From assembly GCF_006345805.1 (NCBI RefSeq), contig NC_042999.1:19530001-19594000 (forward strand): a stretch of 64,000 bases of DNA, given 5' to 3'. The notes beneath the pieces are model-generated. The model saw only the letters and a program-made list of their open reading frames with translations. It searched no databases and was not told where the DNA came from. Made by a program: the position numbers and the translations under genes. Below, in pieces: positions 10,624 to 57,747 of this stretch (the first letter of the stretch is position 1; every line of letters starts with the position of its first letter). This DNA comes from Octopus sinensis (Eukaryota).

Positions 10624-10900
10624 CCTATTTGAAAATGATACCAGGCTTACCATCCCTACAGGAAGTGCAAAAAATCGTGTTAACTGGAATGGCTCATGTA
10701 CTGAGAAGAGCATTATTGCTGTGAAAACAACATCCATTCATGAATTTATTAATTTATTAATTTTTTTAAATACATATTTTACCTGTGAATTTGCATGTGT
10801 AATCTGGGAATGCATGCAATGAGCTTCTCTGCCCTAGGTGTATGGAAAACACTCGGTGAGAAACGGAAGAAAATTTGAAGAAAGAAGGAAGAAAAAAAAT
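10624..10900 (+). mobile_element. R4/Dong-like LINE 3' end
   Basis: Encodes YLKMIPGLPSLQEVQKIVLTG..HVLRRALL; followed by (TAA)n; near-identical to 37092-37445 and 38968-39321. Confidence 0.8.
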
Positions 10901-20864: not shown

Positions 20865-21392
20865 CACACACACACACACACACACTCATTAATATAGTTT
20901 TCTTTTAGGGGTTGAACTTAAAGTAGATAAAGCTATAGACAATAGAGTATAAATATGGTGTTAAAGAACCTTTTGGAGCCATCTTCAACATTTTCTATCT
21001 GAAAGGTTTTTTAACCAGATATTGGCATGCTTTTATTTATAACACTGTTAAACTATGATTTCTACCATTAGAAATGAATTATTTTATGTTCTCTCAAATT
21101 TTCTAAATTTTTATGATGTAAGCAATATATATAACTATAGATGTATGCATGTGTGTGTGTATATATATATAAAGTATGGGGGTTTAGTTCATAGGTGATC
21201 TAAACAATTAGGTACACAAGGTAAGTGCTGTAACAGATTACTAGGGCTTCAAGGTTATAGCTAAGATAGTAGTTATGTAGCCATTAAAGATTTCCAATGC
21301 AGTGAATATATAATTGTTAAAGAGGGAAGCAAACGTTAAGGCAAAGCAAACATCTTAATTCATATACATTATTATTATTGGAAAAATTCAAA

Positions 21393-21448
21393 GTCTTACA
21401 GCTGTTTCTGGGATATACCAGAGTATGGGATATTCCATCATCAGAGAC
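21393..21448 (-). ncRNA. Type I hammerhead ribozyme motif, complete core
   Basis: Minus strand gtct-CTGATGA-tggaatatcccatactctggtatatccca-GAAA-cagctg-TA-agac; helix I GUCU/AGAC, long helix II, palindromic helix III, GUA triplet. Confidence 0.8.
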
Positions 21449-21511
21449 AAATATTTTTCCCTAAACTCGGAAATATACCAGGTATACCTGGACATCCTTG
21501 TTACTTATTTA

Positions 21512-21790: not shown

Positions 21791-21810
21791 ATGGTTATAT
21801 ATATATGTAT

Positions 21811-21858
21811 GTCTCTGATGAAGGGATATCCATAATATCTCAGAAACAGCTGTAAGTA
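21811..21858 (+). ncRNA. Type I hammerhead motif, core intact, helix I weakened
   Basis: gtct-CTGATGA-agggatat..atatctca-GAAA-cagctg-TA-agta. Confidence 0.65.
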
Positions 21859-22363
21859 TATTTATATCTTTTTCCTTATAAATGTCCTGCAAACTCCTCA
21901 CAGCCTTCGCTTTCTTATTTCATTTTGTCTGAACCCACAAGCATAAACAAGAGAGACAGAAACAGGTGGAAACAAGTAAAATGCCCCTTGTATTTGAATA
22001 CTATGCAAATATTCTTTAAAAAAAACTTTTCTTTTAATTTTTCAAAAATTTAATTGTTTTCAATACTTACAGTTGACAAGTTTCAATGACTGAAACCGGT
22101 ACTGAAATGTGTTTTATGACAAAATTATTTTTGTAATTTCTATCTTGACTTTTGCTCCTTCTACATATCAACTCATGTGTTCCTTTTCAACCTTCTACAT
22201 ATATATATATATATATATATATATACCATTCTGCCTTAAAAAATGGATTTACAACATCAATATCCCTGCATATCTTGCACTTGCATCTATTTTCTTTCCT
22301 CCACCTCATTCTCTATTTTGAATCACATCTAAACTAACTGTGACTTAACCATCCTCTCACACC

Positions 22364-24752: not shown

Positions 24753-25310
24753 GCCCTGATGCAGTACAAGGCAGTGGCTCTCATGGCTTCTGATCTTAAT
24801 TGATTGGAAGTGTTATCATGTACATTTTTTTGTCTTGGTATAAAAGATGGGCTACAGCAAATATTCTGCTCAATACCACAGATTTGCTTGTCAGTTGTTT
24901 GACCTTAACCAGTTGAGCATGTCCCTTAGTGGCTGACGATATGTGCATCTCTGATCACGAGCAGAAGTAGTGGGGGAGCATCATGACCATGTGTTGGGGG
25001 GGGGATTCTTTGGGGTTTGAATAATTCACCTCTGGAAACATGGGTGGTTCTTTCAACATCCTTAAACAACCCTTATTCAGAGACCTTTTGAGCGGGATGG
25101 GCTACTCAACCTGAAGAAAATTCTAACTGGGCCCCACCTGCAAGGTCATGTGCTGTTTATCTTGATATGAGATCACCATGTCGAGAACATATGGTTGTGA
25201 TGCAAGTGCCTGGTGTACCTTTATCAGACGGGTAGTCATGATGGGTATATTGGGCTTCGTATATTTTACCCCAGTGTCACTTTGATAGCATGCACTGCTC
25301 TCTCACTCAA
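24751..25310 (+). mobile_element. About 560-bp non-coding element flanked by (TAA)n
   Basis: Begins GCCCTGATGCAGTAC, ends CTCTCTCACTCAA; second full copy at 51078-51625 with the same ends. Confidence 0.7.
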
Positions 25311-25322
25311 TAATAATAATAA

Positions 25323-25690
25323 TATGCATCTCTGATCATGAGCAGAAGTAGTGGGGGAGCATCATAGCCATGTGTTGAGAGGAATTCTTTGGGGTTTGAA
25401 CAATTCACCTCTGGAAACATGGGTGTTTCGTTGAACATCCTTAAACAGCCCTTATTCAGGGACCTTTTGAGCAGGATGGGTTACTCAACCAGAAGAAAAT
25501 TTTAACTGAGCCCCACCTACAAGTTCATGAGCTGTTTATCTTGATATGAGATCATCATGTCGTGCACACATGGTTGTGATGCATGTGCCTAGTGTACCCT
25601 TATCAGACGGGTAGTCATGATGGGTATACTGGGCCTGGTATATTTTACTCCAGAGTCACTTTGATGGCATGCACTGCTCTCTCACTCAGT
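25323..25690 (+). mobile_element. 5'-truncated tandem copy of the same TAA-flanked element
   Basis: Repeats about 24940-25310; (TAA)n on both sides. Confidence 0.7.
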
Positions 25691-36554: not shown

Positions 36555-36950
36555 AGGTGTAGGAGTGGCTGTGTGGTAAGTAGCTTGCTTACCAACCACA
36601 TGATTCCAGGTTCAATCCAATTGCATGGCACATTGGGCAAGTGTCTTCTACTATAGCCTTGGACCGACCAAAGCCTTGTGAGTGGATTTGGTAGATGAAA
36701 ACTGAAAGAAGCCCATCGTATATATGTATATATATATGTGTGTGTGTATATATATTTGTGTGTCTGTGTTTGTCCCCCCCAACATCACTTGACAACCGAT
36801 GCTGTTGTGTTTACGTCCCCGTAACATAGCGGATCAGCAAAAGAGACCAATAGAATAAGCACTAGGCTTACAAAGAATAAGTCCTGGGGTCGATTTGTTC
36901 GACTAAAGGTGGTGCTCCAGCATGGCTACAGTCAAATGACTGAAACAAGT
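36555..36950 (+). mobile_element. SINE type A, full length
   Basis: Complete head to tail. Confidence 0.87.
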
Positions 36951-37090
36951 GTTTGACCTTAACCAGTTGATCATGTCCCTTAGTGGCTGACAATATGTGC
37001 ATCTCTGATCATGAGCAGAAGTAGGGGAGTATTGTAGCCGTGTGTTGAGAAGAATTCTTTGGGGTTTGAATAATTCACCTCTGGAAACAA
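36949..37090 (+). mobile_element. Internal fragment of the TAA-flanked 560-bp element
   Basis: Matches about 24896-25040. Confidence 0.7.
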
Positions 37091-37091
37091 T

Positions 37092-37445
37092 AGAAATTGA
37101 AAAATGTGGCATTTCAAGGTGACTACAGTATCAGTGATTGTAGGAACTCTAGGAATGATAAAAAAGGTACTGAAACCTATTTGAAAATGATACCAGGCTT
37201 ACCATCCCAACAAGAAGTGCAAAAAATCGTGTTAACTGGAACGGCTCATGTACTGAGAAGAGCATTATCGCTGTGAAAACAACATGCATTCATGAATTTA
37301 TTTATTTATTTATTTATTTTTAAATACATATTTTACCTGTGAATTTGTGTGTGTAATCTGGGAATGCATACAATGAGCTTCTCTGCCTTAGGTGTACCGA
37401 AAACACTCTGCGAGAAACGGAAGAAAATTTGAAGAAAGAAGGAAA
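37092..37445 (+). mobile_element. R4/Dong-like LINE 3' end
   Basis: EIEKMW..IPGLPS..QEVQKIVLTG remnant; (TAA)n downstream. Confidence 0.8.
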
Positions 37446-37457
37446 AAGATAATAATG

Positions 37458-37505
<48 letters not shown>

Positions 37506-37517
37506 TTAAAAATAATA

Positions 37518-38923
37518 ATAAATGCACGTAACAAGGTGTTATCTATAAATTCCTTAGCAGTTCCAGTTGTTACTTATAGCTACAATGTGTTGAACTGGAA
37601 TATGAGTGAAGTAAAGAATATAGATAGAAAAATACGCAAGCTGATGAGTTGTAATAGGATGCACCACCCAAAGGCAGACGTAGATCGCCTTTACCTCCCC
37701 AGAGGCCAAGGAGGTCGAGGCCTGATCCAATTTGAACTAGCTTACAAAACAACCACAATTGGACTGGCCAAATATCTCGAAATATCGAATGACTGGATGC
37801 TAAAGCTCATGGAAAATCACGAGAGACGAAAGAAGCTTCATTCTATCATAAAGGAAAGCAAAAAATTTGCTATTGATCTCGTGTAGGATACCCAAACTGA
37901 ACAACCCGAGGGAAGTAAGGCAACTATTGTTGCAAAGAAGGTGAAAATGATGGCAATGAAGAAAGCGCACGAGCAATTGGCTGATAGGTGGGAGGAGAAA
38001 CCTCTGCATGGCAAATATGTGACCCGCAGCAAACAAGCTGATGTTGACCAGAAGCAAACCAATCAGTGGCTACGGAGCTCAGGGCTAAAAGCAGAGAGCG
38101 AAGGTTTCATCCTGGCTGCTCAAGATCAAAGCCTATTAACCCGGAACTACCAGGCCAATGTGATGAAAAATGGAGCAGACCTAAAATGCCGATTCTGCAA
38201 CGACATGATTGAAACAGTGGACCACCTAATCTCTGGATGTAAAGTCTTAGTACCAGTGGAGTATAATTAAGACATGACAGAGTTGGCCAATATCTCTACT
38301 GGCTAATAAGTCGGCATTACAATATCAAAACTGCCGACAAGTGGTATAATCACCACCCTGAGGCTGTAACTGAAGGAGAAAATGTAACCATTCTGTGGGA
38401 CTTTCCAGTACATACAGACCGAACCATCAAGGCCAATAAACCAGATATTGTTGTGAAAGACCAAAACAATAAAGTTTGCTTATTGATCGACATGAGCATC
38501 CCCTGTGATCATAATATCTCAGCGAAAGAGTTTGACAAGCTCAGAAAATATAAAGACCTACTCATTGAAATTGAGAAAATGTGGTATCTCAAGGTGGTTA
38601 CAATACCAGTGATCGTAGGAGCACAAGGAATGATCAAGAAGGGAACCGAAAATTATATGAGAATGATCCCTGGCTTACCATCCCTGCAAGAAGTGCAAAA
38701 GATTGTCTTAACTGGTACATCACACGTATTGAGAAGAGCATTGTCGATGTGAGAACTGTTGCTGCTCATGTATTTTAATTTAACTTAAAAAAAAAAAAAA
38801 AATGAACGATCTACTGAGTTTGGTTTAATGGCCTACCAATGTATACTATGAGTTTCTTTGCCCTAGGAGTCGGGAAGACACTCGGCAAGAAATGGAAGCA
38901 AATTTGAAAGAAGAAAAAAAAAA
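37518..38923 (+). pseudogene. 5'-truncated R4/Dong-clade LINE (post-RT region, CCHC knuckle, RLE)
   Basis: RLYLPRGQGGRGL, AAQDQ, CRFC..ETVDHLISGC, RHD, WDFP..NKPDIV..IDMSIP..KY; stop at 37884 and frameshift near 38268; (TAA)n on both sides. Confidence 0.9.
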
Positions 38924-38967
<44 letters not shown>

Positions 38968-38968
<1 letters not shown>

Positions 38969-39320
38969 GAAATTGAAAAATGTGGCATCTCACGGCGACT
39001 ACAGTACCAATGATTGTAGGATCTCCAGGAATGATAAAAAAAGGTACTGAAACCTATTTGAAAATTATACCAGGCTTACCATCCCTACAGGAAGTGCAAA
39101 AAATCGTATTAACTGGAATGGCTCATGTACTGAGAAGAGCATTATTGCTGTGAAAACAACATCCATCCATGAATTTATTTATTCCTTAATTTTTTTAAAA
39201 TACATAGTTTACCTGTGAATTTGTGTGTGTAATCTGGGAATGCATACAATGCCCTTCTCTGCCCTAGGTGTACGGAAAACACTCGGCCAGAAACGGAAGA
39301 AAATTTGAAGAAAGAAGGAA

Positions 39321-39321
<1 letters not shown>
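38968..39321 (+). mobile_element. R4/Dong-like LINE 3' end
   Basis: Near-identical to 37092-37445; flanked by (TAA)n. Confidence 0.8.
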
Positions 39322-39362
<41 letters not shown>

Positions 39363-50215: not shown

Positions 50216-50821
50216 AGGAGATTTTTCTTCTCTTGATTAAAGCAAATGAAAGCAAAAAAAATAAATATTAAAAAAAATTTCAAGCTGAGAAGATAATTTT
50301 CTTATGAATATATTCTTAATTTTCACAAAAGATAAAATCATCTTTCGGTGGGCAATGTTGTGTTAATATACAATGGATGAACAAGCTGTAGATGAATTAT
50401 TCTGATTTATATTTTAATTCGGAAAAATATATTACCATTAATATCCCCCAAAGAAATCAATTTATATTCAAATGTATAATTACATTTTCATCAAATCTAA
50501 TTAATAAGTATCAATTCACATCATCATCGTCATGATGTTGTGAACGAAGATACTTCTTCCTAGACATGAAGAAGAAAATATAAGACAATCCTCTGGGACA
50601 GAACAATATTTTATTAGTGGTTGGCATCTTGGGATGATTTACTTGGAAAAAGCAGAGAAAAGAAGCAGAGAAACTTTACTCGTTTATTCTAGTATGTTTT
50701 AATTAGATTTATTATTATTATTATTAGCTTCATTAAGCAAGGTTGTAAATTAGCAGAAATCATTAGAATACTAGAAAACATGCCTTACATTATTATTATT
50801 ATTTTATTATCATTATTATTT

Positions 50822-50955
50822 TTCAGGTCACTATCTGGAATCAAACTCAGAATCTTGGGGTTAGTAGCCTGCACTCTTAACACCATGGTGCAGTGGTTAA
50901 GAGTGCAGGCTATTAATGCCAAGAATCTGAATTCAATTCCAAGCAGTGACCTGAA
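50822..50955. mobile_element. Head-to-head pair of tRNA-like heads (inverted repeat centred on CACCATGGTG)
   Basis: A box TGGTGCAGTGG, degenerate B box, ending CAGTGACCTGAA; mirrored on the minus strand; third copy at 57639-57713. Confidence 0.7.
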
Positions 50956-50995
50956 TAATATTAATAAAAATAATAATAATGATAACAATAATAAT

Positions 50996-51057
<62 letters not shown>

Positions 51058-51077
51058 TGATGATAATAATAATAATA

Positions 51078-51624
51078 GCCCTGATGCAGTACCAGACAGT
51101 GACTCTCATGATCTTAACTGATTGGAAGTGTTATCATGTACATTGTTTTGTCTTGGTATAAAAGATGGGCTACAGCAAATATTCTGCTCAATACCACAGA
51201 TTTGCTTGTCAGCTGTTTGACCTTAACCAGTTGAGCATGTCCCTTAGTGGCTGACGATATGTGCATCTCTGATCACGAGCAGAAGTAGTGGGGGAACATC
51301 ATAGCCATGTGTTGAGAGGGATTCTTTAGGGTTTGAATGATTCACCTCTGGAAACATGGGTGGTTTGTTGAACATCTTTAAACAACCATTATTCAGGGAC
51401 CTTTTGAGTGGGATGGGCTACTCGACCAGAAGAAAATTCTAACTGGGCCCCACCTGCAAGGTCATGCGCTGTTTATCTTGATATGAGATCACCATGTCGA
51501 GCTCATACGGTTGTGATGCATGTGGCTAGTGTACCCTAATCAGACGCGTAGTCATGATGGGTATATTGAGCTTCATATATTTTACCCAAGTGTCACTTTG
51601 ATGGCATACACTGCTTTCTCACTC

Positions 51625-51625
<1 letters not shown>
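51078..51625 (+). mobile_element. Full copy of the TAA-flanked 560-bp element
   Basis: Same ends as 24751-25310. Confidence 0.72.
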
Positions 51626-51670
<45 letters not shown>

Positions 51671-51709
51671 TTGTCACAAAAGATAATATCATCTTTCAGT
51701 AATAACATA

Positions 51710-51769
51710 CCCTAACCCTAACCCTAACCCTAACCCTAACCCTAACCCTAACCCTAACCATAACCATAA
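51710..51769. repeat. Interstitial telomere-type repeat (CCCTAA)8(CCATAA)2
   Basis: Directly visible. Confidence 0.92.
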
Positions 51770-51774
51770 CAACA

Positions 51775-51916
51775 GTGGAAAAATACCGTAGGAATGAGAA
51801 CCCAGGTTCAAAATTCCCTCAGGACAACTGATGAAGGTTGGAGAGTACATCAGCCAAAATGTTGTGTTAACAACAAATAAGATGAGGACAAATGTCCATC
51901 AAATGTAAATAATGTA
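51775..51916 (+). mobile_element. HHR-bearing pLTR-like tail (decayed HHR 51824-51867)
   Basis: acaa-CTGATGA-aggttg..cagcc-AAAA-tg-TT-gtgt; homologous to 56500-56645. Confidence 0.65.
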
Positions 51917-52044
51917 AATGCCTTACATTATTAGTTGGACTCTTATGTCTCCAAGTTCAAATCTTGTCCTAGTCAACTTTGTGCATCATACTTCTAGGGT
52001 CGATAGAATAAGATATCTATCAAGAAGTACAAGATGCTTTAGGA

Positions 52045-56100: not shown

Positions 56101-56548
56101 TGAAATATATGAATATATTATGGCCAGCTCAATTAATATGAAATTTTTCATTGCACATCCATTAACATTTTATCAAATACGCTAGTCTATTTTCCTAAAT
56201 ATCTGCAAAGAGATCTTTAGATCCATTTTGTTTGCATATAACCTTGAAAAAACTGCATACTAAATCATTTCCATGTTACTATAATTTATATTTATATATA
56301 ATTTATACAAACATAGGCACAGGAATGGATGTGTGGTAAGTAGCTTGCTTAGCAGCCACATGGTTCTGGGATCAGTCCCACTGCGTAGCACCTTGGGCAA
56401 GTGACTTTTCCCTATAAAATTTATAATACATGTAAATAAATACATGGCAGTAAAAACAAAACTAGAATGTAAATAATATTTTATATAAAGTAAAAACAAT
56501 GCATTATTTACCTTCGACAGATATTTGTCCTCATCTTGTTTGTTGTTA

Positions 56549-56592
56549 ACACAACGTTTCAGCTGATATACTCTCCAGCCTTCTTCAGGTGT
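56549..56592 (-). ncRNA. Minimal type I hammerhead motif, complete core
   Basis: Minus strand acac-CTGAAGA-aggctg-gagagtatat-cagct-GAAA-cg-TT-gtgt; helix III reduced to palindromic ACGU. Confidence 0.75.
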
Positions 56593-56663
56593 CTTGGGGA
56601 ATTTTCAAACATGGGTTCTCATTCCTAAGGTATTTTTCGATGGTATTATTATTATTATTATTA

Positions 56664-57481
56664 TTTTTTTTTTCTTCTTTCAAATTTGCTTCCATTTCTT
56701 GCCGAGTGTCTTCCCGACTCCTAGGGCAAAGAAACTCATAGTATACATTGGTAGGCCATTAAACCAAACTCAGTAGTTCGTTCATTTTTTTAAATTTTTT
56801 TTTTTTAAAGTTAAATTAAAATACATGAGCAGCAACAGTTCTCACATCGACAATGCTCTTCTCAATACGTGTGATGTACCAGTTAAGACAATCTTTTGCA
56901 CTTCTTGCAGGGATGGTAAACCAGGGATCATTCTCATATAATTTTCGGTTCCCTTCTTGATCATTCTTAGTGCTCCTATGATCACTGGTATTGTAACCGC
57001 CTTGAGATGCCACATTTTCTCAATTTCAATGAGTAGGTCTTTATATTTTCTGAGCTTGTCAAACTCTTTCGCTGAGATATTATGATCACAGGGGATGCTC
57101 ATGTCGATCAATAAGCAAACTTTATTGTTTTGGTCTTTCACAACAATATCTGGTTTATTGGCCTTGATGGTTCGGTCTGTATGTACTGGAAAGTCCCACA
57201 CAATGGTTACATTTTTCCTTCAGTCACAGCCTCAGGGTGGTGATTATACCACTTGTCAGCAGTTTTGATATTGTAATGCCGACTTATTAGCCAGTGGAGA
57301 TATTGGCCAACCTGTCATGTCTTAACTTATACTCCACTGGTGCTAAGACTTTACATCCAGAGATTAGGTGGTCCACTGTTTCAATCATGTCGTTGCAGAA
57401 TCGGCATTTTGGGTCTGCTCCATTTTTCATCACATTGGCCTGGTAGTTCCGGGTTAATAGGCTTTGATCTTGAGCAGCCAT
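56664..57481 (-). pseudogene. 5'-truncated R4/Dong LINE (same family as 37518-38923)
   Basis: AAQDQ, CRFC..HLISGC, RHD, WDFP..PDIV..IDMSIP; (TAA)n on both sides. Confidence 0.9.
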
Positions 57482-57489
57482 ATTATTAT

Positions 57490-57713
57490 TATTTTTAACA
57501 CAACGTTTTGGCTGATCAGCCTTCATCGGGTGTCTTGAGGAAATTTCGAACCTGGGTTCACATTCTGAAGGTAGTTTTTGATGTTATTATTATCATTATT
57601 ATTATTATTATTATTATCATCACTTTTTTTTTTTTTTTTCAGGTCACTGCTTGGAATTGAACTTGGAATCTTGGGGTTAGTAGCCTGTGCTCTTAACCAT
57701 TACGTCGTATACC
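57490..57713 (-). mobile_element. tRNA-like head + A/(TAA)n linker + HHR-bearing tail (decayed HHR 57498-57533)
   Basis: Head homologous to 50882-50955; tail homologous to 51775-51870. Confidence 0.65.
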
Positions 57714-57747
57714 AGTAAAAAGAATGTCAAGATCCTTTATAATATGT

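What the first reader, a model, noticed from the sequence alone, without database searches (positions are those of the whole stretch)
56500..57713. Second locus: tandem hammerhead tails split by a Dong insertion
Seen (minus): tRNA-like head, A/TAA linker, tail 1 with decayed HHR ending just past helix I, (TAA)n, an 820-bp Dong fragment, (TAA)n, complete tail 2 with intact core. Established: minimal HHRs with ACGU helix III need a partner copy, which tandem pLTRs supply. Inference: the ancestral unit was a tandem dimer able to self-process. Its TAA linker is a landing pad for Dong-type elements at both loci, a three-level parasite relationship.
Basis: partly seen in the sequence, partly recalled or inferred. 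Interest (0 to 1): 0.72.

Follow-up and report, generated by a model that had tools for sequence, protein, structure and literature searches.

The report
Octopus ribozyme SINE split by LINE
A short, high-copy repeat, likely from an octopus genome, has a tRNA-like front end and two decayed copies of a self-cutting-RNA motif that likely arrived in one Penelope-type insertion and were later split by a younger TAA-seeking retrotransposon, but the double tail is likely a quirk of this one copy rather than the family's working form.

Summary
The layout is confirmed on the minus strand: tRNA-geometry head, A/TAA linker, short tail 1 with a broken hammerhead, TAA, an 817-bp 5'-truncated R4/Dong-type LINE end, TAA, full tail 2. 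Tail 2 is not fully intact (G10.1-C11.1 has become G-U).

A 13-bp flank duplication (12/13) brackets head to tail 2, and the tails share no private change, so both likely arrived in one insertion. The LINE piece is much younger (24/819 differences to a paralogue, against 14/90 between the tails), so it did not create the duplication.

The claim that the family's unit is a self-processing dimer is not supported. The other locus in the window has one tail inside a perfect 16-bp duplication. Contig depth in 3 of 4 runs fits mostly single tails. Folding does not favour the paired form, although that test has no positive control.

The landing pad is ordinary TAA targeting: 7 of 9 such pieces in the window lie outside this element, and the locus-1 insert shows no protein likeness to the LINE.

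What remains of interest is the family: a tRNA-headed SINE with Penelope-type hammerhead and insertion marks, whose autonomous partner was not found.

The parts
57714..57726 (-). Upstream copy of a 13-bp flank duplication (likely target-site duplication)
   Evidence: 12/13 match to 56489-56501; 1 of 1818 AT-rich 40-mers of the window scores as well; a contig joint across the whole cassette resumes at 57714 in 4 of 4 runs
57642..57713 (-). tRNA-geometry head: A-box-like 57707-57697, B-box-like 57663-57653
   Evidence: box starts 44 nt apart; loose-end consensus of other copies gives an A box fitting the recalled Pol III consensus; no ARAGORN or Rfam tRNA hit
57585..57641 (-). A-run and (TAA/TGA)n linker
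57495..57584 (-). Tail 1: short form ending after helix I; hammerhead core 57529-57523 with U4C, G12A and an 8-nt loop II deletion; cleavage triplet and helix I strands kept
57481..57494 (-). TAA run 5' of the LINE piece
56664..57480 (-). 5'-truncated 3' end of an R4/Dong-type non-LTR retrotransposon (CCHC knuckle, restriction-like endonuclease, stop, 3' UTR); holds a TTTT run at 56821
   Evidence: 97% to 38113-38924; about 70% protein identity to C-termini of RT-bearing single-ORF proteins; the 1216-aa relative P0003 hits R2 structures; loose ends at 57480 continue into upstream LINE sequence
56646..56663 (-). (TAA)6 3' of the LINE piece
56502..56643 (-). Tail 2: full form; hammerhead core 56588-56582, GAAA-ACGU near 56560-56553, about 45-nt 3' extension
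   Evidence: family 3' end at 56502 shown by 315-441 loose ends per run
56489..56501 (-). Downstream copy of the flank duplication; contains a T5 run (56496-56492), a likely Pol III stop
50780..51933 (+). Comparison locus: perfect 16-bp flank duplication (50780-50795, 51918-51933) around an inverted linker plus head, a direct head, a linker with a ~550-bp insert and (CCCTAA)n, and one full tail (51772-51915)
   Evidence: 0 of 1818 controls reach the score

Best explanation
This is one decayed copy of a high-copy repeat with a tRNA-geometry head and a minimal-hammerhead tail, likely a Pol III SINE moved by Penelope-like reverse transcriptase and endonuclease, whose two tails likely arose in a single insertion event and were later likely pushed apart by an unrelated TAA-targeting R4/Dong-type LINE. 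Shown: the layout, the bracketing duplication, the relative ages, a single-tail sister locus with an inverted 5' segment, and generic TAA targeting. Inferred steps: Pol III transcribes head, linker and tail up to a T-run. The Penelope enzyme starts at the far end of the tail, copies it as far as the UAA repeats, then jumps to the AC-rich site just behind helix I and copies tail, linker and head. That gives full tail 2, short tail 1 and one flank duplication, the partial tandem with a one-sided extension that is known for Penelope-like elements. The hammerhead is likely carried along as part of the enzyme's recognition region and is likely not needed as a cis dimer. The LINE later hit the TAA run as it hits any TAA array, and its TTTT would now stop Pol III before tail 2.
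For: Flank duplication 12/13 exactly outside head and tail 2, with no TAA between the upstream copy and the head. Contig joint 56441 to 57714 in 4 of 4 runs fixes the 5' border (only 18-27 letters on the short side). Tail 1 has 8 and tail 2 has 6 private substitutions, none shared, after correcting one majority letter by hand. Tails differ at 14/90, LINE copies at about 24/819, Fisher p 4e-6. Sister locus: one tail, inverted head, 16/16 duplication; 81-138 contigs per run carry a short inverted 5' extension. Partial tandems, inverted 5' pieces and a one-sided 30-40-bp tail are listed as Penelope-like marks (PMC8557442, passages). Two RT start sites, ATT cleavage preference and hammerhead cleavage being dispensable in vitro are reported for an Anolis element (PMC11167929, parts 1-2). 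An unpaired base between A9 and G10.1 and a palindromic 15.2-16.2 match the Penelope minimal hammerhead (PMC4209133). Dong elements target TAA (PMC3812793); Dong-R4 is recently active in Octopus vulgaris (PMC13282606).
Against: No autonomous Penelope element with this tail was found: two protein searches with the tail's reading frame gave only an octopus gene end, an unnamed short protein and an ankyrin-repeat chance hit. Pol III transcription is not shown, and a loose A+B box scan fires 12 times in the window. Heads have only 0.23-0.41 of the depth of tail starts, which fits 5' truncation but also several tails per head. One run (X1) gives a core-to-extension ratio of 1.37 by bins and 2.31 at single places. 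The flank offsets were chosen after looking at the sequence. The template jump itself is not observed.
Confidence: 0.6

Rival explanations
1. One reading: the family's source unit was a tandem dimer whose two minimal hammerheads pair across ACGU and cut the RNA, releasing a unit of about 131 nt (a SINE-headed retrozyme); this locus is a faithful copy of it.
For: One duplication brackets both tails. Without the LINE there is no T4 run between head and the end of tail 2. Majority letters restore CUGAUGA and G10.1-C11.1. Tail depth exceeds head depth about 2.5-4 fold. Dimer dependence of minimal hammerheads is in print.
Against: Sister locus has one tail. Core-to-extension ratios 0.76, 0.80, 0.70 in three runs by bins, 1.02-1.21 at single places. 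315-441 contigs per run leave the tail end into mixed flank, agreement about 0.5. No variant marking a short-tail-to-TAA junction is among the 40 best-supported rows (82 rows not shown). Cross-paired fold costs 7.7-9.6 kcal/mol in cis and 6.9-8.7 in trans, so the tandem gives no modelled advantage. Even dimer constructs cleaved poorly in vitro.
Confidence: 0.15
2. Nested insertion: a new head, linker and short tail landed in the TAA run in front of an older headless tail, because TAA arrays offer ATT cut sites.
For: Tails share no private change; tail 1 shares two changes with the sister-locus tail rather than with tail 2 (one is a CpG). Headless tails appear common. Penelope-like elements tend to insert into or next to existing copies (PMC6765202).
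Against: The upstream flank duplication abuts the head directly with no leftover TAA of an older copy; the tails are of similar age (8 against 6 changes).
Confidence: 0.12
3. Local duplication: a single-tail copy duplicated about 110 bp by slippage between the TAA linker and the AC-rich stretch behind helix I soon after insertion, or the LINE insertion made the duplication.
For: TAA and AAC runs give microhomology at both ends of tail 1.
Against: No shared private change, so any slippage must predate nearly all decay. The LINE is far younger than the split between the tails (14/90 against 24/819), which excludes it as the cause.
Confidence: 0.1

Closest known systems
Non-autonomous Penelope-like elements and their pLTR minimal hammerheads (PMC4209133, PMC8557442, PMC11167929)
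   Same: Type I minimal hammerhead with ACGU helix III and an extra base before helix II; partial tandem; inverted 5' piece; extension at one end only; AT-rich targets.
   Different: Carries a tRNA-geometry head and an internal (TAA)n linker; here the complete copy lies upstream of the truncated one; the autonomous partner is not identified.
Schistosoma SM-alpha / Sj-alpha SINE-like hammerhead elements (as described in review PMC6765202 and PMC8490949; originals not read)
   Same: Pol III-type promoter followed by a type I hammerhead in a short non-coding repeat.
   Different: Those occur as tandem repeats of promoter plus ribozyme with shown cleavage; here heads are not tandem, the ribozyme is the minimal Penelope form, and cleavage is untested.
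Animal non-LTR retrozymes (PMC7229834; bioRxiv 10.64898/2026.07.22.740005)
   Same: Short non-coding hammerhead repeats related to Penelope pLTRs, occurring as monomers and dimers.
   Different: Active retrozymes are defined by whole-unit tandems with complete hammerheads in each unit; here tail 1 is broken and short, and the unit has a tRNA-like head.
Dong (R4 clade) non-LTR retrotransposons (PMC3812793; octopus Dong-R4 in PMC13282606, PMC8967140)
   Same: The 817-bp insert has the C-terminal CCHC and restriction-like endonuclease end of a single-ORF RT element and sits in TAA repeats.
   Different: No named Dong reference was aligned; the clade call rests on domain layout and target.
Octopus tRNA-derived SINEs OK, OR1, OR2 (Ohshima and Okada 1994; seen only as a citation)
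   Same: tRNA-derived head, likely the same host group.
   Different: Sequences not available here, so identity with OK or OR1 could not be tested; OR2 is a CORE-SINE, and no CORE-type body was seen in this element (by eye).

Membership tests
tRNA-derived SINE | A and B boxes at tRNA spacing at the 5' end | tested here: met
   Boxes start 44 nt apart with 2 and 1 mismatches to the recalled consensus; loose-end consensus of other copies gives a matching A box 7 nt from the start. The loose scan alone is not specific (12 hits in the window).
tRNA-derived SINE | Detectable homology to a tRNA | tested here: inconclusive
   No ARAGORN or Rfam tRNA match on the decayed copies; head folds have z 0.35 and 0.64.
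tRNA-derived SINE | Short, non-coding, high copy, flank duplications | tested here: met
   Summed contig depth 1e5 to 6e6 against 3-78 for single contigs; 13- and 16-bp duplications.
tRNA-derived SINE | Transcribed by RNA polymerase III | not testable with these tools
   Only assembled contigs were offered.
Non-autonomous Penelope-like element | Minimal type I hammerhead with palindromic 15.2-16.2 and an unpaired base after A9 | tested here: met
   against the description in PMC4209133.
Non-autonomous Penelope-like element | Partial tandem, inverted 5' segment, one-sided extension | tested here: met
   Tandem with one-sided extension at this locus; inverted head at 50822-50889; short inverted 5' extension in 81-138 contigs per run.
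Non-autonomous Penelope-like element | 3' end shared with an autonomous RT plus GIY-YIG element | tested here: inconclusive
   No partner in two protein searches with a 17-40-residue alignment; no genome held.
Non-LTR retrozyme (active) | At least two consecutive units each with a complete hammerhead | tested here: not met
   Tail 1 has U4C, G12A and a loop II deletion; units are split by 817 bp; definition from the bioRxiv paper.
Non-LTR retrozyme (active) | Self-cleavage and circular RNA | not testable with these tools
   Needs assay or raw RNA reads.
R4/Dong non-LTR retrotransposon (the insert) | Single ORF with RT and C-terminal CCHC plus restriction-like endonuclease | tested here: met
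   74 homologues, many about 1200 aa with PF00078; zf-RVT weak hit on the paralogue; R2 structures hit by P0003.
R4/Dong non-LTR retrotransposon (the insert) | Insertion into TAA repeats | tested here: met
   5 of 5 LINE pieces end in TAA arrays; 3 of 5 also have TAA at the 5' side.
R4/Dong non-LTR retrotransposon (the insert) | RT phylogeny within the R4 clade | not tested
   No named reference sequences were at hand.

The most novel reading that the evidence does not exclude
Octopus carries a true Pol III tRNA SINE that has captured a Penelope pLTR end and is moved by Penelope machinery at very high copy number; its UAA linker serves as an internal priming and jump site that builds tandem and inverted copies, and the tandem copies are the self-cleaving source class that releases a ~131-nt ribozyme unit.
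Probability: 0.15. Interest if true: 0.72.

Novelty: new variant of a known kind. Interest (0 to 1): 0.4.

Why it matters
SINEs are normally passengers of LINEs. A tRNA-headed family with Penelope-type ends and insertion marks would extend that partnership to the Penelope class. Its many short copies, each with readable flank duplications, would be a natural data set for how Penelope enzymes build tandems and inversions, which PMC8557442 calls undefined. The family has also reached genes: a predicted Octopus bimaculoides tectonic-3 ends in the tail's reading frame. The specific finding, two tails split by a LINE, is a single decayed locus and adds little beyond one example of a partial tandem and ordinary TAA targeting.

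Tried and rejected
No whole genome is held, so the genome-wide tandem count could not be made. Pattern scans for the tail found 0 loci in metagenome contigs, viral contigs (36, 40) and prokaryote genomes (39). Rfam: 0 matches at gathering score in the window; 9 and 12 sub-threshold matches at the two loci, none tRNA or hammerhead. Earlier findings: nothing by place, sequence or words. In one search the joints between tail 2 and tail 1 places in the same register (for example 56548 to 57517) were rejected as evidence for tandems: they are single tails split over the two copies. TAA stretches were masked there, 450 joints and 3205 loose ends were not shown, and no listed piece spans the stretch. 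Folding: the probability of the double hammerhead was 1e-9 or lower in all models, but there was no positive control and the model ignores Mg2+, tertiary contacts and protein, so this is weak; the 'as it stands' row was mis-indexed onto LINE sequence and dropped. A position-free shuffle test of the locus flanks was not significant (136 of 2000; 10 of 358); only the junction-anchored test was. P0077 (18 matches) looked like a tandem array of tails but is an ankyrin-repeat protein. The LINE as maker of the duplication was rejected on age. Literature: 10 searches showed no paper describing this octopus element or a Penelope-mobilised tRNA SINE; subscription papers, Repbase and Dfam are not covered, and Luense et al. 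2017 was not held.

Full report
Observation. Tail 2 holds GACAC, CUGAAGA, an extra A, helix II, GAAA, ACGU, U and GUGUU, the minimal type I hammerhead layout described for Penelope-like elements (PMC4209133, passages). Its helix II closes with G-U. Summed contig depth from four runs mostly reads the letters that restore G-C at 56561 and CUGAUGA at 56584. Tail 1 has U4C, G12A and an 8-nt loop II deletion. Rfam and ARAGORN see neither tRNA nor hammerhead. The head is tRNA-like by geometry only: A- and B-box-like motifs (consensus recalled) start 44 nt apart, and the loose ends of other copies give a matching A box 7 nt from the start.

Host and copy number. No genome is held. The tail's reading frame matches the C-terminus of a predicted Octopus bimaculoides tectonic-3, so the host is likely an octopus. 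In four runs labelled as four organisms, summed depth on head and tails is 1e5 to 6e6 against 3-78 for single contigs. The tool warns that this is no copy number; it does show a high-copy family.

The insert. It is 97% identical to the 3' part of a longer piece at 37521-38924. It encodes a CCHC knuckle and the C-terminal region shared at about 70% with RT-bearing proteins of about 1200 aa, one of which matches R2 structures. Dong elements target TAA repeats (PMC3812793, passages), and Dong-R4 is among the recently active LINEs of Octopus vulgaris (PMC13282606, part 1 and supplement search). The clade name was not tested by phylogeny. The two LINE copies differ at about 24 of 819 columns and the two tails at 14 of 90 (Fisher p 4e-6), so the LINE arrived long after the tails had begun to diverge and did not make the duplication.

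Was this locus tandem from the start? Likely yes. A 13-bp stretch directly outside the head (57714-57726) recurs with one mismatch directly outside tail 2 (56489-56501). One of 1818 AT-rich control 40-mers scores as well in a junction-anchored test; an unanchored test was not significant, and the offsets were set after inspection. In 4 of 4 runs a contig joins 56441 to 57714, skipping the whole cassette. The short side is only 18-27 letters and the letters between are unknown, so this may be a paralogous or orthologous empty site; it does agree with the 5' border. Against majority letters, tail 1 has 8 and tail 2 has 6 private substitutions with none shared (I reassigned one position where tail 1 and the sister tail agree, and ignored the first column). 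One insertion carrying both tails fits best.

Is the dimer the family's unit? The evidence leans no, without a direct count. The sister locus (50780-51933) has one tail, two heads back to back and a perfect 16-bp flank duplication. At the tail's 3' end 347, 384, 441 and 315 contigs run into mixed flank with agreement about 0.5, though tandem-linked contigs would be under-counted because TAA stretches were masked. A standard dimer with a short first tail predicts about twice as much core as extension; bins give 1.37, 0.76, 0.80, 0.70 and single places 2.31, 1.15, 1.21, 1.02. One run therefore does not exclude it. Heads have 0.23-0.41 of the depth of tail starts, which fits 5' truncation at the linker or several tails per head.

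Could it self-process? With the LINE left out the two cut sites lie 131 nt apart and no T4 run interrupts the RNA before the T5 behind tail 2. The cross-paired double hammerhead is 7.7-8.7 kcal/mol worse than self-paired folds for the present letters, 8.2-9.6 for majority letters, and 6.9-8.7 for two separate RNAs. Without a positive control this says only that a tandem gives no modelled gain. By the topology of a double hammerhead (inference), tail 2's enzyme half could at most cut tail 1's site. In print, even dimers cleave poorly, and for an Anolis element cleavage needs protein and is dispensable for insertion in vitro (PMC11167929, parts 1-2).

Landing pad. The window holds 9 pieces of TAA-associated elements: 5 LINE ends and 4 pieces of a ~550-bp non-coding element. 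Eight end in a TAA array and one is a fragment fused to a LINE end; 2 of 9 lie in this SINE. The locus-1 insert is the non-coding element and shows no likeness to 74 LINE proteins. General TAA targeting explains both cases; a rate comparison needs a genome.

Mechanism (inferred). Pol III makes head-linker-tail RNA. A Penelope-like enzyme starts at the tail's far end, copies to the UAA repeats, jumps to the AC-rich site behind helix I and copies on to the head. Two start sites a tail's length apart, ATT cut preference and extension of both strands are reported for the Anolis enzyme; partial tandems, inverted 5' pieces and one-sided tails are the class marks (PMC8557442, passages). At the sister locus the left duplication ends in ATTATTA and runs straight into the inverted linker, as expected if the second target strand primed on the UAA repeats (inference). 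The partner enzyme was not found.

Comparison and novelty. Pol III promoter plus hammerhead is known from schistosome SM-alpha (review PMC6765202, passages; PMC8490949, passages). Short non-autonomous Penelope derivatives and retrozymes are known (parts 1-2 of the preprint; 58, 74, 79 passages). Ten literature searches showed no account of this octopus family or of a Penelope-mobilised tRNA SINE. PMC10886601, PMC6962438, PMC8967140 and PMC4758252 were checked by passages only. Repeat libraries, subscription papers, the 1994 octopus SINE paper and bioRxiv supplements were out of reach, so the family may already be named. Verdict: observation confirmed, interpretation partly supported, new variant of a known kind, interest 0.4.

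Noticed in passing
window 50780-50953: Sister locus has two heads back to back around a palindromic junction; the left flank duplication ends in ATTATTA and continues directly into the inverted TAA linker, as if the second target strand primed on the RNA's UAA repeats.
   Followed up: partly
window 51918-51977 and 56442-56501: At both loci a 10-nt exact match to the reverse complement of the tail's 3' end lies within 60 nt downstream; 1 of 572 AT-rich control 60-mers reaches 10 (seen first, tested after). Unexplained: target choice or an inverted extension.
   Followed up: partly
loose ends at 57704: 81-138 contigs per run extend the family's 5' end with a short self-complementary stretch, a hairpin-like 5' inversion absent from this copy.
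   Followed up: no
window 21392-21450 (-) and 21810-21860 (+): A divergent pair of a second hammerhead-like motif (CUGAUGA ... GAAAC, palindromic ACAGCUGU), 80% alike over 55 bp; folds are not significant.
   Followed up: partly
window 24753-25309, 25322-25688, 36950-37089, 51078-51625: A ~550-bp non-coding element that sits in TAA arrays, once as a partial tandem; no protein likeness to the LINE; partner unknown.
   Followed up: partly
window 37090-37447, 38966-39325, 10624-10897: A second LINE-end family (72% to the first); two of three pieces start at nearly the same base, hinting at a fixed short derivative or a truncation hot spot. Arrays of such pieces stack at 36950-39360.
   Followed up: no
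window 51709-51770: About ten (CCCTAA) telomere-type repeats inside the sister locus linker, directly before the tail, grading into CATAAC units.
   Followed up: no
P0075 (Octopus bimaculoides tectonic-3, predicted), last 25 residues: The predicted protein ends in poly-Asn plus the tail's reading frame and stops where the window's frames meet the hammerhead's TGA; another annotation of the gene is shorter, so exonisation or a gene-model error.
   Followed up: partly
window 56456-56500: 5-14 contigs per run share two variants in this flank (56460, 56462), so the flank may itself be a low-copy repeat; this bears on whether the empty-site joint is orthologous.
   Followed up: no
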